Below, piece after piece: positions 44,462 to 62,396 of a DNA stretch of 64,000 nucleotides. Source of the DNA: a virus; IMG/VR virus record IMGVR_UViG_3300044213_000051, positions 1 to 64,000 of that record. The stretch is one strand, 5' to 3'. How positions within the stretch are numbered: position 1 is the stretch's first letter; every line of letters starts with the position of its first letter. The position numbers and the translations under genes were made by a program. The notes beneath the pieces are model-generated. The model saw nothing but the letters and a program-made list of their open reading frames with translations. It was not told the DNA's origin and did not search any database.

Positions 44462-45031
44462 CTAAGTAAATTTCGGTCCTTCAAACCAACCGACTAAACT
44501 ATATCTTTTACCCTTAGTCACTGGTGTTAATCTATGATAAACAAAGGAAGGGAATGTTAACAATGTTCCTTGTTTTCTTACTATTTCTGCAGGTGGTGTT
44601 TCAGTAAGATTTTCCAAAACTAAATCGCCACCTTCATATGTTTGTTCATCTGATAATTGAAGAACGAATGTAACTTTTCTATGGTTGTTTGATGGATTAA
44701 TCCAAAAAACATCTTGGTGAGATTTATACTCACCTTTATAAGACTCATCATATTCAGTAAACTGTAAATATGGTAAAGAATTGATATTAAATCCATACCA
44801 ATTTTTATTTACATTAAGTAACATTTTCCAGTAATCTTCAAATACCATCCAGAAATCTTGATTCTCTGGATGAATCCATCTAACTTTAGATCTTCTATAA
44901 TTATCATCACCAACTTTACCTTCATATCCCAAAGTTGGATCTTCTGGAGTAATCTTTAATGCTTTTTCTATAATAAAATCGCACTGCTCTTTTGTATAAA
45001 AAGATTCATTATATACCCATTCACCTTTCAT
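44462..45031 (-). CDS. 2OG-Fe(II) oxygenase (PKHD/prolyl-hydroxylase-like)
   Basis: QFTEY, HQD, RKVTFVLQLS, YEGGDL, FPSFVYHRLTPV, RYSLVGW. Confidence 0.9.
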   Translation of the reverse strand: MKGEWVYNESFYTKEQCDFIIEKALKITPEDPTLGYEGKVGDDNYRRSKVRWIHPENQDFWMVFEDYWKMLLNVNKNWYGFNINSLPYLQFTEYDESYKGEYKSHQDVFWINPSNNHRKVTFVLQLSDEQTYEGGDLVLENLTETPPAEIVRKQGTLLTFPSFVYHRLTPVTKGKRYSLVGWFEGPKFT

Positions 45032-45042
45032 TATATCTCCAA

Positions 45043-45282
45043 TCAAATTACGTTAAGAATAATACCTTGTTCTATTTCCCTTTGAATTTGCGCAGTTAAT
45101 ATAGAAATTACATTATTTTTCATTTCTGTATTAAATTGAATTCCTTGTTTCGCCAACTGCAAATTAGTTCCTGGAACAACAGCAATCAGATTATATGTAT
45201 CTTCATGCACAACATCGTTATGTGTAAACCTGATTGTCGCAGTCCAAGACACATCATCTTCAGTAATAATTTCAACTTGCAT
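45043..45282 (-). CDS. Small hypothetical protein downstream of tail fibre
   Basis: 79 aa with GGAG RBS, overlaps the fibre stop. Confidence 0.6.
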
Positions 45283-48200
45283 TATTTTCTCCAGTTAATT
45301 TAGAAATAATATTTTCTAGTTGTGCGATTCTCGCTTCAAGAGCTGCAACTTTGTCGTCAGTTTGTTTAGAAGCAACTGCAAGAATTGCTGTAGTTTCGCC
45401 GTAAGCAACAGAAAGAGTTCCAGTTCCAGTAGTTAATTTCAAACTGTCGTCAGCTTCTGCTACAAACTCAGAGCATCCATTATCACGTAGAGTTTGTGCT
45501 CCATAACCAATAGAAGTTCTACCTTCACGTTCATATTTAATCGCTGCAGCAGCAAGGGTATTTCTTCTTTCTGTTACATTATCAATCTCACGAACATTAT
45601 CTTTTAGACGTAAGTCAGAATATGTTTGAACGAAACCACCGAAAGTAGTGTTGCCATTCATATCTGAGATCATTAACCAACCCCACTGAGGGTTGTAAAC
45701 ACCCCAAGTTCCACCGTTGGCCATTAATATACAGTTGTTTGGATAAACACCGAAACCACGCCAACCATTTAAACCTGAGCCATATGTTCCCACGTTACCA
45801 TAACTATATTCGTTATCAGAAGCACGAATACCACGACCGTAATCTTCCCAGTAAACACCAGTAGCACCTTGACATCTATGCCAGTCGTTTGCGTAAATTC
45901 TTGTTCCGTAAACATAACCAGTAAATGTTCCACCACCCCATGGCGAGCCAGATGGACCAGTAGGACCTGTTGGACCAGGAGAACCAGCAGGACCTGTCGG
46001 ACCAGTTGAGCCAGTAGGACCTGTCGGACCAGGACTACCAGGAGCACCAGTTGGACCAGCCGAACCAGTCGGACCTGTTGGACCTGTTGGACCAGGAGAA
46101 CCTGTTGCGCCTGTTGGACCTGTTAATCCTGTTGGACCAGGAGAACCAGCAGGACCTGTTGGACCTGTTGGACCAGGAGAACCTGTTAATCCTGTTGGAC
46201 CAGTAGGACCAGTAGGACCTGTTGCACCAGTAGGACCTGTCGGACCTGTTGCACCAGTGGCACCAGTTACACCTTGAATACCTTGAGAACCAGTATCAGT
46301 GATTGTCCAAGTAGACAATGTTCCACTACCACCAACATAATCAACACTGATTGTTAATGTAGTTGCGCTATATGCAGTAATAGCACCAGCGACAAAGTTT
46401 GTTGGAGCAGCTGTGTTAAACGCACGAACGTACTGACCAACAACGAAAGCATTAGTTCCTTGCGCTTGGTTAACTGTAAATGTTTTAGAACCAGTTCCGA
46501 TAAGAACTGAAGAAGTAGAAGTTAAACCACCATATCCTAAACCATTGGCGCCAGTTGGACCTGTTGCACCAGCAGGACCTGTTGCGCCTGTTGCGCCTGT
46601 TGCGCCTTGTGGACCTGTTGGACCTGTTGGACCTGTTGCACCAGTGGCACCTGTAGATCCTGTCGGACCTGTTGCACCAGTGGCACCTTGTGGTATAGTA
46701 AAGTTTAAAACTGCAGCAGAAGTTGTTCCGCTATTTGTAACTGTTACGCTTGTTCCAGAAGCACCTGTTGTTACTGTTCCTACAGTAACAGTGGCAGCAC
46801 TTCCTGTTGGACCTGTTGCGCCAGTAGGACCTGTTGGACCAGGAGCTCCTGTTGGACCAGTAGGACCTGTTGGACCAGTAACACCAGAAGTGTTTGTCCA
46901 TTTACTTGTTGTTGAATTATAAACAAGTACTTGATTGTTTGTTGGAGATGTTATGCTTACATCTGATAAGTTAGCAACTGGAATAGAAATATTCGCACTA
47001 CCATCAAATGACACACCAGCAATGGTACGAGCAGTTGCTAGCTTAGTAGCTGTATCAGCATTACCTGTCAAAGCACCAACGAAGCTAGTAGAAGTAACAG
47101 AAGTTAAACCAGCAAGTGTTGTGCTAGAAGATCCCAGTGCAATCGCAGTAGTACCAACAGTAACAGAACTGTTGGCAAGTGCTGTATTTGGAATAGAACT
47201 TAAACGAGCATTCGGTAAAGTTCCACTAGTAATATTTGATGCGTTGGTAGTATCAGTTGTAGCTGATGCTGCTAGACCAGTAATCTTGCTAGTTGCGATA
47301 GAACCAGCAAGCATTGTATTTGTTACGGTGCCAGTATCACCTGTTGTAACAACAGTACCAGTGACTGCTGGTATAGTGATAGTATTAGTACCAGCAACGG
47401 CAGGAACTTGAACTGTTATAGTACCAGAAGTTGATCCGTTAAGTAATAATGTTTTACCTGCTGCTAAAGCTAAATGCTCAGAAGAAGTCCAAGCACCAGT
47501 GGCATTATACCAGTTGAATGTCTTATCAGTAGTTCCGTGTAGTTTTAAACCACCACCATCAGCTGTAGTATTAGTTGGAGTTGTTACTGTACCAAGTTCG
47601 ATATTTTTATCTGCAATCTGAACAGTTACAGAATTTAGATATTCTGTTGTACCATTAACTGTTAGGTTGCCCGTTACGACTAAGTTTCCACCAAGACTAG
47701 TATTTCCTGTTGTAGTAAGCGCAGCAAATGTCGGAGATGCAGTAGTAGAAATATCTTGAACAGTACTAATAACACCAGTAGTGCTATTATAAGAAATACC
47801 AGTACCAGCTGATAGAGCAGCACGTGCACGTGTATCTGTATAGTAAAGGTTTGTTCCTTCAGCAATATCGCTTGTTGTAGCTGACGCACCAACAGTTGCA
47901 CGACCCTTAGCATCAACAGTAATCTTAGTATAAGTACCAGCAGTTACACCAGAAGAAGCAAGAGTTAAGACAGACGAACCAGCAGAAGTAGTAGCATCAC
48001 CAGTAAATGCTGGTAAACGAGCATTCGGTAAAGTGCCAGAACTAATATTAGAAGCATTAGTAGTATCAGTTGTAGCTGAGGCAGCTAAACCAGTAATTTT
48101 ACTTGTTGGAATAGAACCAGCCAACATAGTGCTAGTAACAGTACCACTGTCAGCTGACGTGATAACAGTACCAGTAACTGCTGGTAGAGTGATAGTATTA

Positions 48201-49366
48201 GTTCCAGCAATTGCTGTTGCTAATAAAGTAACTCCTCCACTTGTTGAACCATTGAATAAAGCACCAGTTCCACCAATCGCTGGTAGAGTTAAAGTTTTAT
48301 TTAATAGAGTTTGTGTTCCAGTTAATGTAACAACAGTAGAGTCAATAGAAACTGTTTGACCTGATACAGTAATACCAGTACCTGAGCTAGTAACTACTAT
48401 ATTAGAAGTGCCATCAAAAGTTACACCGTTAATTGTTCTTGCTGTTGCTAGCTTAGTCGCAGTATCTGCGTTGCCAGTAAGAGCACCAACGAAACTTGTT
48501 GATGTTACGCTAGTCAAACCAGCAAGTGTTGTGCTCGCAGCACCGAGAGAAATAGTTGTTGTACCAACTGTTACAGAACTGTTGATCAGTTTACCGTTGG
48601 CAATAGAACCAGCCAACATTGCGTTGGTAACAGTACCAGCGTCGCCAGTTGTGATAACAGTACCTGTTGTAGCAGGCAATGTGATAACAGTACCAGTACC
48701 AGCAGTTGAACTTGGAATAAGCTGGATAGAACCTGAAGTTGATCCAGGTAATGTTACTGAAGAGATACCAGTTAATGCTAAGTTTGCGCTTGCTCTGTTT
48801 AAAGCTACAGCAGTAGTACCAATATAGTGGGTATCAGTGGAGTTAGCGATACCAGTGATCGCACCATTAACGCCATTGACAGAAAGAACACCAGTGTTAG
48901 CAATAGTTACTGCGCCAGAACCATCGAAACTTGTGCCACTTAAACCAGTACCAATAGTAAGAGCATTAGTAGTACTGGCTTTAATTGTGATAGCTGCACT
49001 ACCATCGAATGCTACGCCATTAATATTAGCTGCAGTTAATAGTTTAGTAGCTGTACTTGCGTTGCCAGTAAGAGCACCAACGAAACTAGTAGAAGTAACA
49101 GAAGTTAAACCAGCTAAGGTTGTCGAAGAAGAACCTAATGAGATTGTTGTAGTACCAACAGTAACAGAACTGTTTGCTAATTTAGTATTAGGGATTGACG
49201 ATACGTTACTTAAATCTGCTCTAGCAAGTTGATAACCACCAGCAGTAACACCATCGTGAACGTGTAAAGTATTAAGTGTTGTATTGAATGTAGCTTCAGC
49301 CAACTGACCTGTAAAAGTCGAATGTTGGGTAGCAGTACCTCTTCTTAGTTGTATTTGAATTGACAT
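45272..49366 (-). CDS. Long tail fibre: Mtd-N-like N-terminus, Thr/Gly-rich repeats, collagen (GXT)n blocks, C-terminal S74 intramolecular chaperone
   Basis: IQLRRGT...HDGVTAGG; (GPT/GAT)n; SDLRLKDNV...IGYGAQ...coiled coil. Confidence 0.88.
45955..46880 (-). repeat. Collagen-like 9-bp codon repeats in two blocks
   Basis: Degenerate GGACCTGTT/GGACCAGTA tandem repeats on the + strand, encoding Gly-Pro-Thr on the minus strand. Confidence 0.9.
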
Positions 49367-55155: not shown

Positions 55156-55183
55156 TATTTATCTTATTTTGGAACGCTAAATA
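55156..55183. promoter_or_regulatory. Back-to-back divergent late promoters
   Basis: GATAAATA on minus (55156-55163) and CTAAATA on plus (55177-55183). Confidence 0.6.
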
Positions 55184-55227: not shown

Positions 55228-55869
55228 ATGGACAATATTCAAGCACCCCAAAATGGAACAGGTTCAGCGACTGAAGTTCCATCAGATAAACAGTTAGTTA
55301 CAAAAACTTTCGAAAAACTGTTATTCCCAACCGATATTAAAAGTTTCCAAATTTCGGATTTTGAGGATTTTCAACAGAAACTTTTGACATTTATTCAAAG
55401 TGAAGAATGTCAACCAAAAGATTCTTTAGAGCCGATCGACCCGATTTTTAAAGAAGATGACAGTATCTTCAAACTTCGCGAAATTGTATACTCTATTTGT
55501 GAACAATTACCAGAGTTTAATATACCAGAGCTTCAATACACACCAACTATTATTGGCTCACAGATATTTTATCAACAACAATACGAACACATTCCACCGC
55601 ATGCGTATGAATTTGTTCCGTTGGTATTTTCGTTCATTTTGTCATGCCCAGAATCACCCCCAGTAACTTATTATCCAGATACTCGTGGAGCAGTTCAAAC
55701 AGTTAGAGATACAGTATCTCAAAACTTAGTTGCTACTAGTTTCTCTCTGCGTGGATGGCAAGGTGAAGTTATTGTCACACCTGGATATCTACAACGTTAT
55801 GTGGAAACAAACTTGTCTGAAAGAACTTACGTTGTTCTTAATGTCAAAATTGGTTTTGCTTCCTATTAA
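55228..55869 (+). CDS. Degenerate 2OG-Fe(II)/cupin-fold protein (TIGR02466-like)
   Basis: GGAG RBS; PPHAY...YPDTRGA...GEVIVTPGYLQRYVETNLS follows the family pattern HxH...DPR...G.L.IFPSWL.H.V..N.S..R with ligands lost. Confidence 0.6.
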   Translation: MDNIQAPQNGTGSATEVPSDKQLVTKTFEKLLFPTDIKSFQISDFEDFQQKLLTFIQSEECQPKDSLEPIDPIFKEDDSIFKLREIVYSICEQLPEFNIPELQYTPTIIGSQIFYQQQYEHIPPHAYEFVPLVFSFILSCPESPPVTYYPDTRGAVQTVRDTVSQNLVATSFSLRGWQGEVIVTPGYLQRYVETNLSERTYVVLNVKIGFASY

Positions 55870-56917
55870 ATTTAGCAGTTCGAGGAATGTAGCGTAAGCT
55901 ATAATCTTCATATAAAAATAACCAAGTCGGTATGGGGTTTCCTAAATTGGAAACCCCTTTTGGTTTGTTCCAAGCATAGTAAGAATCTCCACTATACTCC
56001 TCAATCAATTGACGCATAACCCATCTGTGAGTTAGTGCGTTTCCAACTTCTTTCGTAAATGGTTCTTTGGTTGTAATAACATAACGCTGAAAATCGTCAG
56101 TATTAAAAAAGTGATATATGTTATCTTGACGTTTCGTACTAACCATTGACGCAAACTGAGAAGTATACCAATCATAGTTAAAAATACACCACCATCTTAA
56201 ATCACGCAAAGTTTCAATTTTTTTAGGACTTGCCTTTATTGACGGAAGAATAAACTCGTGTAGCTCTGGGTTTATACATTTGGTGTAATCCATCAGTGGA
56301 TCTGGACCTTTGAACTGATGATGGAAAAATGATATATCAGTTTTCACAGTTCCAGTTGTAAAGTCGTCTGTCGGACCAAACAGTTGGTTACCAAAAAACC
56401 CTGTTACAAAAATCTCATCTTCAGGACAGTCATCAAACTCTCTTCTGGAAGTAACCTTAATTTTATGGTTTACGCCAGATGGTAAGATAACTTTATCAAA
56501 CATCGAGCCAGATTCTAATACAGAACTGTAAGTTCCATAAACAGTAATTCTTGATGGATCTTTCGCGTAGTGAATCAGCGCAAACAGAACCAATGTGCTG
56601 TCAATACCACCACTCCAAACAACGTTAATTTTCTTACCTGTTGCAAGAAGCTCTTCGCAACGTTCTTTAACTATCTGCTCGAACGACTTGTTAAAACCTT
56701 CTGGAATTTCTGGTATCTGTAGCAACCCACCCTTCATATTAAGGTAATGTGGAGTATTACCAGTTCTATCAAACACAACATTCAAATTCATGTTATGTTT
56801 CTCATAGAAGTTAAACAACTCTATAGCATTATCCGATAGATCGTCAGCAATCGTATCTGGATATTGAGCCATTACTTGTTTAACGTACCCTGTATTATAA
56901 AATAAAATTTGTTTCAT
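55844..56917 (-). CDS. Asparagine-synthetase-like (PP-loop adenine nucleotide alpha-hydrolase) protein without glutaminase domain
   Basis: VVWSGGIDST PP-loop; FVTGFFGNQLFG (cf. AsnB SGEGGDELFG). Confidence 0.75.
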   Translation of the reverse strand: MKQILFYNTGYVKQVMAQYPDTIADDLSDNAIELFNFYEKHNMNLNVVFDRTGNTPHYLNMKGGLLQIPEIPEGFNKSFEQIVKERCEELLATGKKINVVWSGGIDSTLVLFALIHYAKDPSRITVYGTYSSVLESGSMFDKVILPSGVNHKIKVTSRREFDDCPEDEIFVTGFFGNQLFGPTDDFTTGTVKTDISFFHHQFKGPDPLMDYTKCINPELHEFILPSIKASPKKIETLRDLRWWCIFNYDWYTSQFASMVSTKRQDNIYHFFNTDDFQRYVITTKEPFTKEVGNALTHRWVMRQLIEEYSGDSYYAWNKPKGVSNLGNPIPTWLFLYEDYSLRYIPRTAKFNRKQNQF

Positions 56918-56929
56918 TATATCCTCAAA

Positions 56930-56956
56930 ATAAAAATGGGGAGCTTAGGCTCCCCA
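56930..56956 (-). terminator. Intrinsic terminator hairpin
   Basis: TGGGGAGC-ctaa-GCTCCCCA followed by TTTTT on the minus strand; GATAAATA box at 56958-56965. Confidence 0.7.
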
Positions 56957-56975
56957 ATATTTATCACGCTACAGA

Positions 56976-57923
56976 TTAATGTAATTGAATCTTGCTTACA
57001 AGACCTGGAGTGAAGTAGTCAGCAAACTTCTCGTAAACTGCAGAAGTAACTTCTTTGAATTTCTTCTGTTCAGTTTCATCCATGCGAACAACCATAACAC
57101 CCTTTTCTTCACATTCAGCTAGAATGTTTGGAATGTCAGCAACTGATTCACGACGCTCTGCACGAGCAGCGTTGAAAGCAGCAGTAGCCATAATTTCTTG
57201 AGTTTCTTCATCGAACTGAGCCATGAAGTCTTTGTTAACAATAATAGAAGTCAAGAACAAGCTGTGGGCAGTGTCATTAACAACCTTGAAAGACTTATAT
57301 TGGTCAAGTGGGAAAATACGAACGTAAGTAGATTCGCCAGCAGCAATTTCGCCACGATCAGCAAATTCGTTCATTTCTTCTAGAGCGATGTGCTCTTTTG
57401 GTTCTGCTCCAAGCAACTTAAATGTTTCAACAGCAACAGGGCTACGGCTAGTACGAACAGCTTGACCTTTCCAAGCATCTACAGTGTCAGCCTTAAAGTT
57501 AGCTGGAACAACACGATAGCCACCAGAGTAAGTGAAAGACATAGCGTGGATATTACTATTCTTAGAAACACCAGCTAACAACTCAGCACCAACTTCACCT
57601 TCCAAAACAGCGTCAGCATGGGCGTGGTCACGGAATAGGAATGGTAGGTCTAAAGCGTGTAGATCTTTGTTGTAATCAGCCAACCAAGTAGTGTAGATGT
57701 GGCTCATTTCGATAGTGCCATCATCGATCATCTGCATTAGGTCGTTCTTGCTGATTTTCTTGCCATCGTTATACTTAGCTGCATAGTCTGATAAAGAAAG
57801 AACTTCAATGTTAAACATACCATTGGTTTTTTCGTTAACTTCTTTAGCAAAGTGCTCAGCAACTTTCAAAAACAAGCCAATAGGCTCGTGGGCGATAACC
57901 CATTTTACATGTTTTTGTTCCAT
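56976..57923 (-). CDS. TRAP transporter substrate-binding protein (DctP-like)
   Basis: FAKEVNEKTNG.FNIEV, LDLPFLFRDHAHADAVLEGEVG.ELL, GGYR, VR, FKLLGAEP, TAH. Confidence 0.88.
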   Translation of the reverse strand: MEQKHVKWVIAHEPIGLFLKVAEHFAKEVNEKTNGMFNIEVLSLSDYAAKYNDGKKISKNDLMQMIDDGTIEMSHIYTTWLADYNKDLHALDLPFLFRDHAHADAVLEGEVGAELLAGVSKNSNIHAMSFTYSGGYRVVPANFKADTVDAWKGQAVRTSRSPVAVETFKLLGAEPKEHIALEEMNEFADRGEIAAGESTYVRIFPLDQYKSFKVVNDTAHSLFLTSIIVNKDFMAQFDEETQEIMATAAFNAARAERRESVADIPNILAECEEKGVMVVRMDETEQKKFKEVTSAVYEKFADYFTPGLVSKIQLH

Positions 57924-58250
57924 TTAAATCTCCTTTTTGTTTCTATGTAGTAGGTACCCAAGTTTAGTTAGGTCCAATATCCAGCTTTCTTCACTACTAT
58001 TTATCTTATGGTAGATTACTGGAATGTTATTTTCGACAATTATTCTTATATATTTATGAACAACTGCTTTTTGCTCCTCACTTCCAACCAACTTAAATTC
58101 TGGGATCTGGATAGATACATTGTTGTTTTGAAACGACTCTGTAGTTTCTGAATTATGATAGAAAATCCTAGAGATAGTATGTCTATCATAATTCGATCCA
58201 TATCTTGGAAATTTATTAACTTCCCAAATATAACAATCTAAAAAAGCCAT
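57924..58250 (-). CDS. Hypothetical protein
   Basis: 108-aa ORF coupled between the radical SAM and TRAP genes. Confidence 0.55.
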   Translation of the reverse strand: MAFLDCYIWEVNKFPRYGSNYDRHTISRIFYHNSETTESFQNNNVSIQIPEFKLVGSEEQKAVVHKYIRIIVENNIPVIYHKINSSEESWILDLTKLGYLLHRNKKEI

Positions 58251-58251
58251 A

Positions 58252-59721
58252 TTATTGAATAGTCGTTGGAATGCTAACAACTGGAATGTTTACAGGTTTG
58301 CGAACTTTCCAAGATTTCTGTGTACCACCAGATTTCACAAAATCAATGTCAATAACAGGTTGGCTTGTTTGTCCGTCGAATCTGATTTTTTCGCCTTGTA
58401 TTTCAACCAAAACCAATCCATCAGTCATGATAAACATAGAAGCTGCCAGTATTGCCAAATTATACCAATAGAGATTCTCGCATGCTTGACTCCAATATTG
58501 ATCTTCTAAGAACAGGCACGCACCTTGACATAGTTGAACAACTGGACAAGAAGGGCATTCTGCACGAGTTGACCAGTGATATGAGTTCTTCAAACGAACA
58601 TCTTCTAACTGATCGATATTACCAAGGTTGTGTTTAGTTAGAGAAGAAGTGTTTTGGCAAGTAGTTACGTTACCTTTCATATCGATGGCAATCGTATCTT
58701 CTTTATCCATACCACACTTTTGACCAACAACAGTAGCTGGTCTTTGGTAAACTAACGATTCAAAAAACCCTTGGATTTTCTGATTAATTGTCCAACTAAA
58801 CTGATTCTTAAACTCAATAGTTTCCCAGAACAACGAATGTAGAATTTCTTTCTTCTCATCTGGCGTTTGAATAGAGTGAGCCATGCCACTATCATCATAT
58901 GGTAACATCAATTCTTCTGTTGTTACCTGCAATTCAGTCTGTCCAATTTCAACATAATCATATCCAAGATCTTTACGATTTAATTTTTCTTGAATAAAAT
59001 CACGAACAGCTGCAATTGAAACATTCTGACGTGTCAATACACAGTTAAACGTAAATCTCATCTGACCCATTGTTTTTAAAGCATAAACAACAGCATCTTT
59101 TGCTTCTGGTTCATCCAAAGGATCTGGTCCACGGTTCTGAGCATGCAGTGGTCCATCGTGAGACATACCAATAGAGAATCCCATTTGATTGAACCAATCA
59201 ATCTTTTCTCGTGTTAATAGTGAGCCATTAGTCACCATCATAAACTGCGCATTAGGATAAACCTTACGAATCTTTTCCGCCAATGGTTTTAGAGTTTTCC
59301 AATAAACCATTGGTTCACCACCCCAAAATTCCAAACGGAATCTATCATAAGTGCTAAACTTAAAATTATTTTTAATCTTTTGAACAAGTTCTTCAGCATC
59401 CTCTGGACCACCAACTGGATCGTGTGGTTGATGTGCCTGATTGCAATATGAGCAAGCGTAGTTACACTTAAGACCCATAGTAATTTTTAGAGTTGCTGGT
59501 TTATCTGACTTCTTACCCCAGAGATCTGGGTTATGTGGATTGGTTATTTTAGCAGGTTCCCATTTTTTAGCAGTTACCTGATATTCTAATCCGTTTGAAA
59601 TGTGAGTCAATGTAGGTTTAGTGCCATCCGATTCCCAATAAACTTCAGAAGTCATTGGATCATACACTAATGTTTCTTTCACATCATTTGATCCTTGTAG
59701 GATCAACTTATATTTACTCAT
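58252..59721 (-). CDS. Radical SAM/SPASM-domain enzyme (anSME/peptide-maturase-like)
   Basis: CNYACSYC (CX3CX2C), FWGGEP, VTNGSLL, SHDG; SPASM C...GNVTTC...CPSCPVVQLCQGAC...C. Confidence 0.93.
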   Translation of the reverse strand: MSKYKLILQGSNDVKETLVYDPMTSEVYWESDGTKPTLTHISNGLEYQVTAKKWEPAKITNPHNPDLWGKKSDKPATLKITMGLKCNYACSYCNQAHQPHDPVGGPEDAEELVQKIKNNFKFSTYDRFRLEFWGGEPMVYWKTLKPLAEKIRKVYPNAQFMMVTNGSLLTREKIDWFNQMGFSIGMSHDGPLHAQNRGPDPLDEPEAKDAVVYALKTMGQMRFTFNCVLTRQNVSIAAVRDFIQEKLNRKDLGYDYVEIGQTELQVTTEELMLPYDDSGMAHSIQTPDEKKEILHSLFWETIEFKNQFSWTINQKIQGFFESLVYQRPATVVGQKCGMDKEDTIAIDMKGNVTTCQNTSSLTKHNLGNIDQLEDVRLKNSYHWSTRAECPSCPVVQLCQGACLFLEDQYWSQACENLYWYNLAILAASMFIMTDGLVLVEIQGEKIRFDGQTSQPVIDIDFVKSGGTQKSWKVRKPVNIPVVSIPTTIQ

Positions 59722-59770
59722 GCTATTCCTTTAATATAAATGAAAATACCCTGCTTTATCTTACACAGGG

Positions 59771-59777
59771 TATTTAG
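59771..59777 (-). promoter_or_regulatory. Late promoter box upstream of the radical SAM gene, overlapping a 10-bp inverted repeat
   Basis: CTAAATA; AAATACCCTG/CAGGGTATTT arms. Confidence 0.55.
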
Positions 59778-59787
59778 CCACTAGAAA

Positions 59788-60819
59788 TTAAACCAGTGTA
59801 ATCATTAACTCAGCAAAAGTTAATTGTGGTCCACAGTTTAATTTAAATTTGATAAAATCACCAGCTGAAAGTTTGTTGTCAACGATAACGTCTTCGTATC
59901 CAGCAAATCTTGAGGGAAGATTATTTAGACCAAGATATGTGAAATCTGGAGCTACTTGACCAGTTCGTACCCCAGAAGTTAATCGAGTTTTAGATGGTGT
60001 TCCATTTACACAATTTATATCGAATGTTACTGGTAAAGTTTTATCTGGTATTCCACTCTGATATACAACTCTAAACTTATATTCAGGATTGGTCGGTAAA
60101 GAAATTGCAAATTGTCCGCCAGCAAATTTTTGTGGATCTACCCCAGGCATAACGAATGTTGATGGAACCATACTTAAAGGGACTTCAGTGGTAACAACAT
60201 TATTATTAGCGTCAAGAATTTGGAAAATGATATTTACTATATAGTTCATAGCGATATCTTTAATTCTGTCTTTGGTAGACATTTCAACTGGTGCTGGTGT
60301 AGTAGCAGAGTCTATTACTGTTGCGTGTGGTGATCCATCTTCAATAACATGGAATGTTAAAACACTAGCAGAAAAATCAGTTACTGTTCCATAAAATGAT
60401 TCAATTTGAAAACATGGAAACAATTTTTCGCTTTGTCTTGCTTGAATGTCACTCCAAATAGTATGATGAGATGTACTAGAATTTATTAGTGTTTGAGTAT
60501 ACGATAGAACATTAAATGGGTCGTTGATCGTTTCAGTTTCAGCGTCAAACTCAACGATCCAAGCCATATTGTCTGTATACTGAACAAAATCTGCTGGAGT
60601 GAACGCTCTTGTAGCTACAGTTGTATATGTAATTGGAGCGTCTACAGCAGAATTTAAGTCTGGTTTAACTAGTTTATCAACAGTAAGGTTGATTGTTTTA
60701 GTACTATCAACATATCCCATTGTTACTCTATAGTTAGAATTAACCGCAAGAACACCCTGTGGGTATGATGTTTGACTAGGATCAAATCCTACGATTGGTG
60801 TTTTATAGATTTTATACAT
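59788..60819 (-). CDS. Hypothetical protein (beta-rich C-terminal domain) between the Cys-rich ORF and radical SAM gene
   Basis: 343-aa ORF with AGGG RBS; no recognisable motif. Confidence 0.7.
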   Translation of the reverse strand: MYKIYKTPIVGFDPSQTSYPQGVLAVNSNYRVTMGYVDSTKTINLTVDKLVKPDLNSAVDAPITYTTVATRAFTPADFVQYTDNMAWIVEFDAETETINDPFNVLSYTQTLINSSTSHHTIWSDIQARQSEKLFPCFQIESFYGTVTDFSASVLTFHVIEDGSPHATVIDSATTPAPVEMSTKDRIKDIAMNYIVNIIFQILDANNNVVTTEVPLSMVPSTFVMPGVDPQKFAGGQFAISLPTNPEYKFRVVYQSGIPDKTLPVTFDINCVNGTPSKTRLTSGVRTGQVAPDFTYLGLNNLPSRFAGYEDVIVDNKLSAGDFIKFKLNCGPQLTFAELMITLV

Positions 60820-60832
60820 TTATATTCCCTAA

Positions 60833-61204
60833 TTAGCAGTTACAGTTGCATGCGCAGTTACAGTTGCAATTACAGTTGCAATTACAGTTTACGCGATAGT
60901 AACGGAACATACCAAGAGACTGTTCTTGAGAATCGTGACGCATACCAGCACCATTATATGCACCATTGGCGAAGATGTTAATACGCCAGTCTGTAGTATA
61001 TATGTTTAAGGGGATTGGTCCTGGATTACAGTTACCACAGTTACAGTTACAAGCTGTGTTACATGCGTTACATGCGCAGTTCCAGTTACAGTTACCGTTA
61101 GAATCATTCACATAACGTGCGCCAACGTCACCCTGCCATCCCCAGAAAATACCGTTAAGGTCGGTACCACCCGAATTTCTAAATCCAACCGCTGCTACTG
61201 GCAT
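60833..61204 (-). CDS. Cys/Asn-repeat protein; putative radical-SAM substrate / tail-tip protein
   Basis: GGAG RBS within the fibre end; 17 Cys in two arrays (NCNWNCACNACNTACNCNCGNC; NCNCNCNCNCNCACNCNC-stop). Confidence 0.8.
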   Translation of the reverse strand: MPVAAVGFRNSGGTDLNGIFWGWQGDVGARYVNDSNGNCNWNCACNACNTACNCNCGNCNPGPIPLNIYTTDWRINIFANGAYNGAGMRHDSQEQSLGMFRYYRVNCNCNCNCNCNCACNCNC

Positions 61205-61205
61205 A

Positions 61206-62396
61206 TTATTTCTCCAAGTTTTCTAATCGAGTATTTAACTCTTTAATAGTTTCGTTTTGTTCTTTAATTGCTTCAATCAGTAAACCAACGATGTTAGCAT
61301 AGGCAACAGATTTGAATCCCTCGGAGTCTTCTCCGACTAAGAAAGGCATAACTCTTTCTACTTCCTGGGCGATTAAACCGATTTCTGGTTTACCTTGTTT
61401 CAGATAGGAAACGCCACGCAATTGTAAAACAGTGTCTACGGCATTATTTAGCGTTTGTACGTTCTCTTTTAATCGTTGGTCAGAAGAAATCTGGAATCCG
61501 CCAGCATAAACAGTTCCACCAACACTTTCGTTACCATTAACAGTATTGCTTCCTGTAAAGGTGTTATTAGCGTTTAGACGTGGAATATTAGAACCAACGT
61601 TAATTGTTGGATTACCAGCAACACCATCTGGATTGCTAATAGTAATATCTGATCCAGCAGCCAAAGTTCTTGGAACGATTGTGTTAGTTGCTGTTCTGGC
61701 AACCAAGCCAGTTGTAGATAAGTTAGCGTAAGCTGTTAACTCTGCGCTGAATGGTTGAACGTCTGTACCAACACGAGTACCTAAAACTGCCTGAGCACCA
61801 GAAGTCGATGTTGTGGCAATAAGAGATCTGGCATAAGAAGTTAGCGATGCTGTTGTTAGGGTATTAGCACCATTAAAATAAACAACCTGATCAGCTGCAC
61901 CAGAAATCCCTGATAATGAGTCTAGTTTTGTGTTCCACGCTTGGACGTTTGTTCCGATAATCAATCCAAGATTGGCACGAGCATTTGACGCATTAGTTGC
62001 GCCAGTACCACCAACGGATACAGGAATAGAACCACCGCTAATTGAAATTGAACCAACCGACAAAGAACCAGTAAATGTAGCATTTACACCAGTAATGTTA
62101 TTTGTTGAGGTTAAATTGTAGAATGTAGAGCTACCTGTAGAATCGCGAGTAACTACAGAACTGTAATTTGGACCAGTTGGTAATGATGGATTGGATTGCA
62201 ATCCTTGTAACAAATCAGCGTCTAAACCAGATCCAACACCATCAACAGTCTCCAATTGCGTAATAATGTTATGCGCATTAAAGTCTGTGATTAATACTCT
62301 TGTCTGAATATCTGCGTTTAGGTTTGTGAAGTTGGCATCAACTTCATTATTTGTTAGGGGTGAACCCTTAGATTGTCTTAAAACGAGTGTCGCCAT
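61206..62396 (-). CDS. Tail fibre protein with C-terminal S74 intramolecular chaperone
   Basis: LRQSKGSPLTNNEVDANF, GSGLDADLL, SDQRLKENV, IGLIAQEVE, VAYANIVGLLIEAIKEQ. Confidence 0.9.
   Translation of the reverse strand: MATLVLRQSKGSPLTNNEVDANFTNLNADIQTRVLITDFNAHNIITQLETVDGVGSGLDADLLQGLQSNPSLPTGPNYSSVVTRDSTGSSTFYNLTSTNNITGVNATFTGSLSVGSISISGGSIPVSVGGTGATNASNARANLGLIIGTNVQAWNTKLDSLSGISGAADQVVYFNGANTLTTASLTSYARSLIATTSTSGAQAVLGTRVGTDVQPFSAELTAYANLSTTGLVARTATNTIVPRTLAAGSDITISNPDGVAGNPTINVGSNIPRLNANNTFTGSNTVNGNESVGGTVYAGGFQISSDQRLKENVQTLNNAVDTVLQLRGVSYLKQGKPEIGLIAQEVERVMPFLVGEDSEGFKSVAYANIVGLLIEAIKEQNETIKELNTRLENLEK

What the first reader, a model, noticed from the sequence alone, without database searches (positions are those of the whole stretch)
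55228..62396. Phage-encoded RiPP-like cassette inside the tail-fibre module: (Asn-Cys)n protein, radical SAM/SPASM enzyme, AsnB-like ligase and TRAP binding protein
Seen: between two blocks of virion genes lies a co-oriented run of S74 tail fibre, 123-aa protein with 17 Cys, 343-aa unknown, rSAM with CX3CX2C and a full SPASM Cys set, 108-aa unknown, DctP-like protein and PP-loop (SGGIDS) ligase, plus a convergent degenerate cupin. xTAAATA late-promoter boxes lie at 59771, 57998, 56958 and 55177. Established: rSAM/SPASM enzymes next to Cys-rich short ORFs install thioether cross-links (sacti/ranthipeptides; NxxcB links Cys to the Asn beta-carbon), and AsnB-type synthetase domains make amide or macrolactam bonds (lasso cyclases). 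Inference: a lytic phage uses RiPP chemistry late in infection to mature a virion component, or to make a peptide product. I know of no characterised system of this kind.
Basis: partly seen in the sequence, partly recalled or inferred. Interest (0 to 1): 0.92.

Follow-up and report, generated by a model that had tools for sequence, protein, structure and literature searches.

The report
Radical-SAM system modifying phage fibre tips
A freshwater T4-like phage, like hundreds of other phages and prophages, keeps a radical-SAM/SPASM enzyme beside a tail-fibre tip protein that ends in an alternating Cys-Asn tail, so the fibre tip is probably modified chemically in the way peptide antibiotics are; no paper found here describes this.

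Summary
All eight genes exist as described, and their order is kept in at least 16 related IMG/VR contigs.

The main new result is comparative. This rSAM/SPASM family (phrog_1802; at least 584 IMG/VR stretches, 189 in bacterial genomes) almost always lies just downstream of a protein ending in a (Cys-X)n tail, where X is N, A or D.
- Forward test: 16/16 close loci, 45/50 distant loci and 52/58 bacterial loci carry the tail. None of 503 downstream genes do.
- Reverse test: 33/36 loci chosen only by an in-frame C-terminal NCNCNCNC carry the rSAM. None of 38 out-of-frame controls do.

In relatives the tail is the C-terminus of true tail fibres, or is followed by a Hint self-cleaving domain. The 343-aa protein belongs to a second near-universal partner family ('A').

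The AsnB-like enzyme, the signal-less DctP-like protein and the 108-aa protein are accessories limited mainly to T4-like lineages. The 'cupin' is a PF13759-type oxygenase homologue with one iron ligand replaced.

Best reading: the rSAM modifies the fibre-tip tail, most likely by thioether cross-links. The enzyme-substrate link is strongly supported by context. The chemistry is inferred. I found no description in the literature.

The parts
61206..62396 (-). Tail fibre (396 aa) with a C-terminal S74 intramolecular chaperone domain. Its shaft is orthologous to the L113 fibre, which ends directly in an NC tail.
   Evidence: PF13884 at 51.5 bits. Tail-fibre PHROGs. 48% identity over residues 1-266 to L113:5019-6164.
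60833..61204 (-). NC123, a 123-aa Asn/Cys-rich protein and the proposed substrate. It is a free-standing version of the C-terminal 'NC domain' of fibres in other phages.
   Evidence: 17 Cys. Family alignment A3 has Cys invariant at alternate positions. No Pfam, NCBIfam or PDB match. Its profile weakly hits the JWF and L020 fibres.
60836..60886 (-). C-terminal (Cys-X)8-Cys tail, CNCNCNCNCNCACNCNC, ending the protein.
   Evidence: It is the only long C-x-C run in the 87-kb contig.
61028..61090 (-). Internal Cys-rich tract, residues 39-59 (CNWNCACNACNTACNCNCGNC).
59788..60819 (-). p343, a member of family 'A'. This is a tandem beta-sandwich protein always encoded beside the tail-bearing protein. 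It evolves fast and may be a tip chaperone, adaptor or adhesin.
   Evidence: Clusters with family A, found in 59 loci. AF2 pLDDT 82. BFVD fold matches to uncharacterised phage proteins, E down to 6.5e-14. 17-38% identity to relatives whose rSAM is 64-89% identical.
58252..59721 (-). Radical SAM/SPASM enzyme (489 aa) of the phrog_1802 family.
   Evidence: PF04055, TIGR04085, and phrog_1802 at 216 bits. Invariant Cys at 86/90/93 and at 336, 355, 389, 392, 398, 402, 414. Nearest solved structures: TvgB 8vpo, anSME 4k36-39, CteB 5wgg.
59443..59466 (-). CX3CX2C radical-SAM cluster motif (CNYACSYC).
58516..58557 (-). SPASM CX2CX5CX3C motif (CPSCPVVQLCQGAC).
57924..58250 (-). p108, a small protein of unknown function. 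It travels with the PP-loop enzyme in T4-like lineages.
   Evidence: Alignment A5 includes L116 and L113 homologues. No Pfam or PDB match.
56976..57923 (-). DctP-family (TRAP) solute-binding protein with no signal peptide. It is an orphan with respect to membrane subunits.
   Evidence: PF03480 at 142 bits. Starts at the first beta-strand of the mature domain. The conserved carboxylate-binding Arg context is kept. No DctM or DctQ in the contig. 77% identical in L113, where the rSAM is only 38% identical.
55844..56917 (-). Stand-alone AsnB-type synthetase (PP-loop) domain protein. SGGIDS lies at residues 102-107 (window 56597-56614). There is no glutaminase domain.
   Evidence: AF2 pLDDT 80. VIA Z 12.2-13.9 to beta-lactam synthetase, ASNS, AsnB, CarA and TsnB9, against 10.5 or less for other PP-loop enzymes. 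314 uncharacterised clusters.
55228..55869 (+). Convergent 213-aa divergent PF13759-type 2OG-Fe(II)-oxygenase homologue. The distal His is replaced by Arg.
   Evidence: hhalign probability 96.6%, E 5e-10 to the OXY family. The Arg is conserved in all 16 members. It is kept next to the rSAM even where p108, DctP and the PP-loop gene are absent.
56937..56956 (.). GC-rich hairpin between the DctP stop and the PP-loop start. It is terminator-like on both strands and is overlapped by an ATAAATA box at 56958-56964.
57998..58005 (-). GATAAATA late-promoter-like box, 75 nt upstream of the DctP-like start.

Best explanation
This is a phage fibre-tip maturation system.

**Shown by comparative context**
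- The rSAM/SPASM enzyme is functionally tied to a C-terminal (Cys-X)n tail, where X is Asn, Ala or Asp.
- In relatives, that tail is the distal end of tail-fibre proteins. In this phage it sits on a separate 123-aa tip protein encoded right after an S74-chaperoned fibre.
- The family-A protein (p343) is a near-universal third partner.

**Inferred**
- Late in infection, in the reducing host cytoplasm, the rSAM threads the free C-terminal tail into its active site.
- It then converts the alternating Cys residues into thioether (ranthionine or sactionine type) cross-links to the neighbouring X residues. This would give a compact fibre tip with no free thiols, resistant to oxidation and proteases.
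- p343 acts as a tip chaperone or adaptor, or stays on the tip as an adhesin.

**More speculative**
- The AsnB-like synthetase domain, the 108-aa protein and the cytoplasmic DctP-like carboxylate binder form a lineage-specific second tailoring step. This would be ATP-dependent amide formation on a carboxylate of the tip protein, or attachment of a bound organic acid.
- The PF13759-like protein descends from an Asn/Asp-type hydroxylase partner common in other loci. Here it has an altered metal site.
For: **Synteny.** The whole cassette is syntenic in 16 or more IMG/VR contigs.

**Forward association.**
- A run of 4 or more alternating Cys lies on the same strand within 7.5 kb upstream of the rSAM in 16/16 close loci and 45/50 distant loci (34-49% rSAM identity).
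- Three of the five exceptions have shorter NCNC or NCQC tails.
- None of 503 downstream genes carries the motif.
- In bacterial genomes, 52/58 loci carry it.

**Reverse association.** Loci were picked only by the DNA pattern for NCNCNCNC. Of 36 with an in-frame C-terminal motif and at least 4 kb of downstream sequence, 33 carry the rSAM. Of 38 with the pattern out of frame, none do.

**Virion context.**
- The L054 tail-bearing protein has a T7 tail-fibre N-terminal domain, collagen repeats and a CBM5/12 module.
- The L113 orthologue of the window's fibre ends directly in NCNCNCNC.
- Where the motif is internal (phage JWF, L051, L077 by Pfam; L064 by sequence likeness), a Hint self-cleaving domain follows at once, starting at the last Cys. 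The tail would therefore still end up C-terminal.

**Enzyme features.**
- The CX3CX2C motif and seven SPASM Cys are invariant.
- A possible fourth ligand of auxiliary cluster I (C227) is present in only 12/22 sequences. This is compatible with a site open for substrate Cys, as proposed for thioether-forming enzymes.
- NCBIfam best hits are RiPP maturases and anSME.

**Tail composition.** X is N 55%, A 25%, D 13%, Q 1.6%. [quoted passage not shown] Cys itself is invariant.

**Precedent for protein substrates.** CrpC installs ranthionines on the Cys-rich protein CrpA (PMC13692751).

**Selection.** Synonymous codon variation with a fixed repeat number points to protein-level selection.
Against: - No chemistry was observed, so the modification type is inferred from family resemblance only.
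- The rSAM scores far below the cutoff of every curated maturase family.
- No RiPP recognition element, leader protease or exporter was detected.
- Thioether links between directly adjacent residues in a strict C-X-C-X pattern have no characterised precedent that I know of.
- The AsnB-like, DctP-like and p108 genes are missing from most rSAM-plus-tail loci. A different accessory set replaces them in L035, L037 and L048. Their link to the tail is therefore weak.
- Virion incorporation of NC123 itself is not shown.
Confidence: 0.6

Rival explanations
1. The rSAM does act on the tail, but the chemistry is not thioether cross-linking. It could be anSME-like oxidation of Cys to formylglycine, epimerisation, or another radical modification.
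For: anSME is among the best NCBIfam hits and the best full-length PDB hits. The top partial PDB hit is TvgB, a C-C-bond-forming enzyme that acts on repeat precursors. SPASM enzymes carry out many chemistries.
Against: The TIGR03942 score is 65.7 against a cutoff of 349. The tails lack the sulfatase C/S-x-P/A-x-R motif. Only seven SPASM Cys are conserved. As I recall it, not checked here, anSME has both auxiliary clusters fully Cys-ligated. The residues at X match the acceptors tolerated by a thioether-forming enzyme.
Confidence: 0.15
2. The (Cys-X)n tail is a metal-binding or disulfide ladder in the trimeric fibre, analogous to the His-X-His iron sites of the T4 gp37 tip. The rSAM would then have another substrate, such as protein A or a small molecule.
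For: Alternating residues put all Cys on one face of a beta-strand, as in HxH fibre motifs (my own knowledge of T4 gp37; not tested here). C-x-C runs resemble metallothionein motifs. No modification has been seen.
Against: This reading does not explain the near-obligate two-way coupling of tail and rSAM. It also does not explain the restriction of X to N, A or D, or the need for a free C-terminus enforced by Hint domains.
Confidence: 0.1
3. The cassette makes a diffusible peptide or protein product, such as a bacteriocin-like, anti-defence or signalling molecule, and not a virion part.
For: rSAM/SPASM enzymes next to Cys-rich ORFs are the signature of RiPP clusters. NC123 is small and separately encoded.
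Against: No leader protease or exporter lies in the locus. In most relatives the tail is fused to 200-726-aa fibre proteins with fibre domains. The position inside the fibre module is conserved across podo-, sipho- and myovirus-like contexts.
Confidence: 0.07
4. The AsnB-like, DctP-like and p108 genes are an independent metabolic or host-takeover module that happens to sit in the fibre region. They would be unrelated to the rSAM system.
For: They are absent from most rSAM loci and from all 58 bacterial loci with enough upstream sequence to judge. DctP is far more conserved than its neighbours (77% against 38% for the rSAM in L113), which suggests a constant small-molecule ligand. The hairpin and ATAAATA box between DctP and the PP-loop gene suggest separate transcription.
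Against: They co-occur with the rSAM in two T4-like lineages whose rSAMs are only 38% identical. The PP-loop gene alone sits next to the rSAM in L021 and L116. A different accessory set occupies the same slot in L035 and L037, as tailoring genes do in biosynthetic clusters. The DctP-like protein has no signal peptide and no DctQ/M partner.
Confidence: 0.3

Closest known systems
Ranthipeptide and sactipeptide maturases (PapB, NxxcB, CteB)
   Same: Both are rSAM enzymes with a SPASM domain encoded next to a repetitive Cys-rich substrate. Cys is strictly required. The acceptor set reported for NxxcB (Asn native; Ala, Gln, Asp tolerated; PMC9389541) matches the residues at X here. PapB can also use a free C-terminal carboxylate residue (PMC12373016).
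   Different: Scores lie far below family cutoffs: PapB model 66.6 against 340. The substrate is a 120-726-aa structural fibre protein, not a leader-core peptide. The motif is a strict C-X-C-X alternation at the extreme C-terminus. No RRE, protease or exporter is present. The setting is a phage fibre module.
CrpC/CrpA of Methanococcus voltae (PMC13692751) and QhpD/QhpC
   Same: A SPASM rSAM installs thioether cross-links in a Cys-rich protein, as opposed to a short peptide.
   Different: Those are cellular systems (archaeal; amine dehydrogenase subunit) with no sequence-family relation shown here. The target here is a virion fibre tip, and the system has its own conserved partner, family A. 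QhpD is cited from my own knowledge and from the NCBIfam hit TIGR03906.
Anaerobic sulfatase-maturating enzyme (anSME)
   Same: It is the closest full-length solved relative by profile (4k36-39). It acts on Cys in a folded-protein substrate. Database annotators have used this name for phage homologues, for example in phage JWF.
   Different: TIGR03942 scores 65.7 against 349. No sulfatase is present and the C/S-x-P-x-R motif is absent.
Asparagine synthetase B family synthetase domains (AsnB, beta-lactam synthetase, CarA, TsnB9; lasso-peptide cyclases)
   Same: The PP-loop SGGxDS motif is present, and the fold gives Z 12-14. Several family members have a glutaminase-type domain that is reported inactive (from memory, not checked here) and form intramolecular amides.
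   Different: Only the synthetase domain is present (357 aa). TIGR01536 scores 16.9 against 267. No lasso B1/B2 partners were found. The substrate is unknown.
Fibre-tip partners such as T4 gp38/gp57A, Mu/lambda Tfa, and S74 intramolecular chaperones
   Same: A gene immediately downstream of the fibre gene evolves fast and is needed at the fibre tip, which is the position of family A and NC123. The window's fibre also uses an S74 chaperone.
   Different: No sequence or specific fold relation was found. None of those systems involves a radical SAM enzyme. The comparison rests on gene position and my own knowledge.

Membership tests
Radical SAM superfamily (PF04055) | CX3CX2C motif binding the SAM-cleaving 4Fe-4S cluster, plus a Pfam hit above the gathering score | tested here: met
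   CNYACSYC at residues 86-93. PF04055 scores 40.3 bits against 29.5. The motif is invariant in 22 homologues.
SPASM subfamily (TIGR04085 / PF13186) | C-terminal seven-Cys motif CX9-15GX4C ... CX2CX5CX3C ... C | tested here: met
   TIGR04085 scores 36.5 against 27. C336-x13-G-x4-C355, C389/392/398/402 and C414 are all invariant. Pfam PF13186 alone is below its cutoff, at 13.9 against 21.5.
anSME (TIGR03942) | Score above the equivalog cutoff, and a substrate with the C/S-x-P/A-x-R motif | tested here: not met
   The score is 65.7 bits against 349. No such motif occurs in NC123 or in the relatives' tails.
PapB-type ranthipeptide maturase (NF047865) | Score above the equivalog cutoff, and a short precursor with Cys-X3-Asp/Glu motifs | tested here: not met
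   The score is 66.6 bits against 340. The substrate motif here is C-X-C-X. A similar mode of action is not excluded.
Classical RiPP gene cluster | Short leader-core precursor, a recognition element (RRE), and a leader protease and/or exporter | tested here: not met
   The substrate candidates are 120-726-aa proteins. Pfam, NCBIfam and PHROG scans of the eight cassette proteins named no PqqD/RRE, protease or transporter family. A cryptic RRE in the rSAM N-terminus (residues 1-75) or in p108 was not excluded.
Thioether (sactionine/ranthionine) cross-linked product | Loss of 2 Da per link, with non-alkylatable Cys sulfur bonded to an alpha, beta or gamma carbon | not testable with these tools
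   This needs mass spectrometry of the expressed or virion protein.
AsnB-type synthetase domain | PP-loop SGGxDS motif and the AsnB C-terminal domain fold | tested here: met
   SGGIDS is invariant. Z is 12.2-13.9, rmsd 3.0-4.6 over 181-244 residues, to 1mc1, 9b6c, 1ct9 and 1q19. This stands above other PP-loop enzymes at 10.5 or less.
Asparagine synthetase B (TIGR01536) | N-terminal Ntn glutaminase domain, and a score above the cutoff | tested here: not met
   The protein has 357 aa. The models align only from about residue 65 onward to the synthetase domain. The score is 16.9 bits against 267.
TRAP transporter solute-binding protein (DctP, PF03480) | DctP domain with the conserved carboxylate-binding Arg | tested here: met
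   142 bits against 23.4. NF037995 scores 104.9 against 50. The Arg in AVRTSRSP aligns with KIRT of 4p47.
Functional TRAP transport system | Signal peptide on the binding protein, and DctQ/DctM membrane subunits | tested here: not met
   The N-terminus starts at the mature domain. There is no PF06808 or PF04290 match in the 87-kb contig, which is about 55% complete.
PF13759 2OG-Fe(II) oxygenase | Pfam hit, and the His-x-Asp/His...His iron triad | tested here: not met
   There is no Pfam hit. Homology appears only by profile-profile comparison, at 96.6% probability. The distal His aligns with an Arg conserved in all 16 members.
S74 intramolecular chaperone fibre (PF13884) | C-terminal Peptidase_S74 domain | tested here: met
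   51.5 bits against 22, over residues 305-354.

The most novel reading that the evidence does not exclude
A widespread and so far unrecognised post-translational modification of phage receptor-binding fibres. A dedicated rSAM/SPASM enzyme would turn a C-terminal (Cys-Asn)n tail into a thioether ladder. The ladder would rigidify the tip, or covalently staple the fibre trimer, or attach the fast-evolving family-A adhesin. Interchangeable tailoring modules (an AsnB-like ligase with a cytoplasmic solute-binding protein, 2OG oxygenases, desaturase-like enzymes) would diversify tip chemistry and so host range.
Probability: 0.45. Interest if true: 0.9.

Novelty: new variant of a known kind. Interest (0 to 1): 0.82.

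Why it matters
Tail-fibre tips decide which bacteria a phage can infect. They are usually treated as plain folded protein, in some cases matured by self-cleavage. A radical-SAM enzyme dedicated to the fibre tip would add enzyme-installed covalent chemistry to virion assembly, and the system here occurs in hundreds of phages and prophages of Alpha- and Betaproteobacteria and in freshwater T4-like phages.

It would also extend RiPP-type chemistry to large structural proteins, and it defines a new, very simple substrate motif, (Cys-X)n at a free C-terminus. Several uncharacterised families get a testable role: phrog_1802, family A, the stand-alone AsnB-like domain and the cytoplasmic DctP-like protein.

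Two carriers are cultured phages, Achromobacter phage JWF and Ralstonia phage RSP15. The question can therefore be tested directly by virion mass spectrometry and by gene knock-outs.

Tried and rejected
I obtained contexts from the search for related loci and the DNA search instead.
I could not test binding of NC123 to the rSAM or to p343.

**Sequence and profile searches that found nothing useful**
- NC123, p343 and p108 against Pfam and NCBIfam gave nothing; PHROGs gave nothing for NC123 and p108 and one weak hit for p343 (phrog_16344, unknown function, E 1.2e-4). Their profiles against PDB sequences gave nothing significant.
- The ESM Atlas gave no usable hit for NC123.
- NCBIfam has no model for the tail-bearing fibre ends or for families A and B.

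**Fold searches**
- p343 against the PDB gave only generic Ig-like or beta-sandwich matches: Foldseek TM about 0.2 and VIA Z of 9 or less for residues 194-343.

**Profile-profile comparisons**
- p343 against distant family-A members was only weak by hhalign (33.7% probability, E 4e-4, C-terminal 55 aligned columns). Membership rests on transitive BLAST clustering and the BFVD fold matches.
- Family B, fam33, fam76 and p108 showed no relation to one another or to the oxygenase family.

**Literature**
- Seven searches found no description of the system.
- The cyanophage 'radical SAM maturase' in PMC12801897 is a different context.

**Expression**
- No RNA holder was listed for this stretch. The only strong DNA holder is a freshwater metagenome that may be the source sample. 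I did not lay reads.

**Ideas considered and set aside**
- The idea that the AsnB-like enzyme converts encoded Asp to Asn in the tail. Lineages that carry the enzyme encode mostly Asn, while lineages without it encode more Asp. That is the opposite of what the idea predicts.
- The canonical T4 late promoter TATAAATA is not enriched in the window.

Full report
**What the window is.**
- The window is the first 64 kb of an 87-kb linear viral contig, about 55% complete by CheckV.
- It encodes T4-type major capsid, portal, sheath, terminase and DNA polymerase proteins.
- Its capsid protein is about 65% identical to those of Methylophilales phage Melnitz, marine cyanomyoviruses and Pelagibacter phage HTVC008M.
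- The only strong DNA holder among public runs is a freshwater metagenome.
- Nearly all genes, including the cassette, lie on the minus strand.

**Checking the observation.**
- The 396-aa protein carries a Peptidase_S74 chaperone domain and matches many tail-fibre PHROGs.
- The 123-aa protein has 17 Cys and 25 Asn.
- The 489-aa protein has the CX3CX2C motif, a Radical_SAM hit and a SPASM hit above its NCBIfam cutoff.
- The 315-aa protein is a DctP-family binding protein that begins at the mature domain with no signal peptide.
- The 357-aa protein has an invariant SGGIDS PP-loop.
- GATAAATA or ATAAATA boxes lie at 58005..57998, 56964..56958 and 55163..55156, and a weaker CTAAATA lies at 59777..59771.
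- ATAAATA is strongly enriched just upstream of starts on this contig (9 of 19 copies in 5.6% of positions). The canonical T4 octamer is not enriched.
- The cassette is flanked by virion genes. Upstream are a 2178-aa structural protein and an 80-aa virion protein. Downstream are a 110-aa protein of a fibre-assembly PHROG and further fibres.

**The cassette is conserved.**
- tblastn of the window proteins against fetched IMG/VR loci shows one order in at least 16 contigs: big protein, p80, S74 fibre, NC protein, p343, rSAM, p108, DctP, PP-loop, reversed cupin-like gene, p110, p75, fibre.
- Conservation is uneven. The rSAM is 71-89% identical, DctP 73-90%, PP-loop 58-75%, NC protein 45-77% and p108 37-58%. 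p343 is only 17-38%.
- The NC-protein alignment shows Cys invariant at every second position of the C-terminal tail, with N, A, D, Q or T in between.
- Homologues differ by synonymous Cys and Asn codons while keeping the repeat number. The repeat is therefore held by selection on the protein, not by DNA slippage.

**The key result: the rSAM and the (Cys-X)n tail travel together.**

*Size of the family.*
- The rSAM belongs to a large phage family. It scores 216 bits to phrog_1802.
- It has 1094 protein clusters at E of 1e-20 or better.
- It has at least 584 IMG/VR stretches and 189 stretches in species-representative bacterial genomes. The bacterial hits are mostly Alpha- and Betaproteobacteria such as Limnohabitans, Ferrovibrio and Rhodospirillales.

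*Forward test.* I scanned every ORF in the fetched loci for four or more alternating Cys.
- The motif lies on the same strand within 7.5 kb upstream of the rSAM in 16/16 close loci and 45/50 distant loci. Distant means 34-49% rSAM identity.
- Three of the five exceptions have shorter NCNC or NCQC ends.
- None of 503 downstream genes carries the motif.
- In bacterial genomes the figure is 52/58.

*Reverse test.* I scanned IMG/VR for the DNA pattern AAYTGY repeated four times, without reference to the enzyme.
- 36 loci read the pattern in frame as NCNCNCNC within 12 residues of an ORF end and have at least 4 kb of downstream sequence. Of these, 33 contain the rSAM.
- 38 loci do not read the pattern that way. 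None contains the rSAM.

**The tail belongs to tail fibres.**
- In the distant loci the motif is usually the extreme C-terminus of proteins of 200-726 aa.
- One such protein (L054) has a T7 tail-fibre N-terminal domain, collagen repeats and a CBM5/12 module before the tail.
- In L113, a related T4-like contig, the orthologue of the window's fibre is 48% identical over residues 1-266. It has no S74 domain and ends directly in ...HNCNCNCNC.
- Where the motif is internal, a Hint (intein/hedgehog-type) domain follows at once, in a CFPAGT-like context. Pfam finds it in Achromobacter phage JWF, L051 and L077; L064 has no Pfam hit and is included by sequence likeness. Self-cleavage there would again leave the tail at a free C-terminus.
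- NC123 is therefore best read as a free-standing version of a fibre-tip domain, encoded just after a fibre whose own C-terminus is removed by the S74 chaperone.
- NC123's profile weakly detects the JWF and L020 fibres.
- It is the only protein on the 87-kb contig with a long C-x-C run.

**The other partners.**

*Family A (p343).*
- Clustering the neighbours shows that p343 belongs to a family present in 59 loci.
- It is usually encoded directly after the tail-bearing protein. In a few loci it comes directly after the rSAM.
- Its AlphaFold model (pLDDT 82) is a chain of beta-sandwich domains.
- The model matches uncharacterised phage proteins in BFVD at E down to 6.5e-14. These include a 271-aa protein, the length of the RSP15 family-A member (an inference from length, since BFVD gives that entry no name), and a protein of Ralstonia phage RP12.
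- Against solved structures it gives only generic Ig-like hits.
- It is the fastest-evolving gene of the cassette, and its last 80 residues are the most conserved part. This fits a tip chaperone, adaptor or adhesin. I cannot tell which.

*Oxygenase family.*
- A PF13759 2OG-Fe(II) oxygenase family accompanies the rSAM in 31 loci.
- The window's convergent 213-aa ORF is a divergent member (hhalign 96.6%, E 5e-10).
- Its distal iron-binding His is replaced by Arg in all 16 lineage members.

*PP-loop protein.*
- Its model has pLDDT 80.
- It aligns to the synthetase domains of beta-lactam synthetase, human and E. coli asparagine synthetase, carbapenam synthetase and TsnB9 at Z 12.2-13.9. Other PP-loop enzymes reach 10.5 or less.
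- It lacks the glutaminase domain.
- Its 314 relatives are all unnamed.

*Distribution of the accessory genes.*
- The PP-loop protein, p108 and the DctP-like protein occur together only in T4-like lineages: the window's own and L113, where the rSAM is 38% and DctP 77% identical.
- The PP-loop protein occurs without DctP beside the rSAM in L021 and L116.
- All three are absent from the bacterial loci.
- In L035, L037 and L048 a different set fills the same slot. It comprises family B, two fatty-acid-desaturase-like proteins and two unknowns. The same set recurs in the distant loci L020 and L114.

**How it most likely works.**

*Shown.*
- The enzyme family and the tail are coupled in both directions, in a fibre context.
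- The radical-SAM Cys and seven SPASM Cys are invariant.

*Inferred.*
- The rSAM acts on the free C-terminal tail in the cytoplasm and forms thioether cross-links from the invariant Cys to neighbouring residues.

*Three things point to thioethers in particular.*
- The best family and structure matches are Cys-modifying SPASM enzymes.
- The candidate fourth Cys ligand of auxiliary cluster I is not conserved (12/22). This is compatible with substrate-Cys ligation as proposed for such enzymes (PMC9389541).
- The residues at X across 82 distinct tails are N 55%, A 25%, D 13% and Q 1.6%. For NxxcB, Asn is the native beta-thioether acceptor and Ala, Gln and Asp are tolerated, while Cys cannot be replaced (PMC9389541).

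*Precedents.*
- PapB's use of a C-terminal carboxylate residue gives a possible reason for the free-end requirement (PMC12373016).
- Modification of whole Cys-rich proteins has a recent precedent in CrpC/CrpA (PMC13692751).

*Role of the accessory module.* The role of the AsnB-like, DctP-like and p108 module is the weakest part. AsnB-type domains adenylate carboxylates and TRAP binding proteins hold carboxylates. My best guess is therefore an amide-forming step on the tip protein, or ligation of a bound organic acid. I give this about 0.2 to 0.3.

**Rivals.**
- A different radical chemistry on the same tail (0.15).
- A metal or disulfide ladder with the rSAM acting elsewhere (0.1).
- A diffusible product (0.07).
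- Independence of the accessory genes from the rSAM system (0.3, not exclusive with the main reading).

**Comparison with what is known.**
- The enzyme is a member of the radical SAM/SPASM superfamily. It is not a member of any curated maturase family: every score is far below cutoff.
- The system works like ranthipeptide or sactipeptide maturation and like CrpC or QhpD protein cross-linking.
- It differs in substrate (fibre proteins), motif (strict C-X alternation at a free C-terminus), partners (family A) and setting (virion module).
- Seven literature searches found no description. The library is incomplete, so 'undescribed' is provisional.
- Databases call the phage homologues 'anaerobic sulfatase-maturating enzyme' or 'radical SAM domain protein'.

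**Limits.**
- Nothing here shows a modification, virion incorporation of NC123, or timing of expression.
- ORFs in the loci were called by a simple longest-ORF rule.
They are not independent support.

Noticed in passing
L035:10418-15230, L037:10373-15748, L048:1-1819; also L020:4857-9925 and L114: In some members of the window's lineage, the p108, DctP and PP-loop genes are replaced by another conserved set. It comprises family B (about 285 aa, no Pfam), two PF00487 fatty-acid-desaturase-like proteins and two unknown families. The same set recurs in distant loci. It looks like an interchangeable tailoring module.
   Followed up: partly
L001:5844-7295 (Achromobacter phage JWF PJWF_00028); L064:4510-6081; L077:4398-5339; L051:218-850: These fibre proteins have an internal (Cys-X)n run followed at once by a Hint/intein-like domain (…CSC|FPAGTMV…). 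Self-cleavage would probably expose the tail as the C-terminus, possibly through a thioester intermediate.
   Followed up: partly
L029:1672-4015, L054, L055, L076, L084, L087: Several loci carry two tandem rSAM genes. A shorter paralogue of about 335-340 aa lies directly upstream of the full-length enzyme of about 450-480 aa.
   Followed up: no
L141, L156, L172, L198, L204: A variant gene order occurs here: a 133-173-aa tail-bearing protein, then the rSAM immediately, then family A.
   Followed up: no
window 56937-56964: A perfect 8-bp GC-rich hairpin is terminator-like on both strands. An ATAAATA box abuts it, between the DctP-like stop and the PP-loop start. Transcription may be re-initiated inside the cassette.
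   Followed up: partly
window 55844-55869: The convergent PP-loop and cupin-like genes overlap by 26 nt at their 3' ends. A plus-strand terminator-like hairpin at 55934-55957 lies inside the PP-loop coding region.
   Followed up: no
window 45272-49366: A 1364-aa fibre protein gives collagen-like and tail-fibre PHROG hits. An earlier first-reader note reports a 2OG oxygenase just downstream of it (44462-45031). I did not examine that gene.
   Followed up: no
L263, L273, L311, L245 (Limnohabitans isolates) and other L234-L313 loci: The tail, family A, oxygenase and rSAM set occurs inside the chromosomes of cultured Limnohabitans strains and of many Alpha- and Betaproteobacterial MAGs. These are presumably prophages or tailocin-like elements. 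They hint at the host range of the system.
   Followed up: partly
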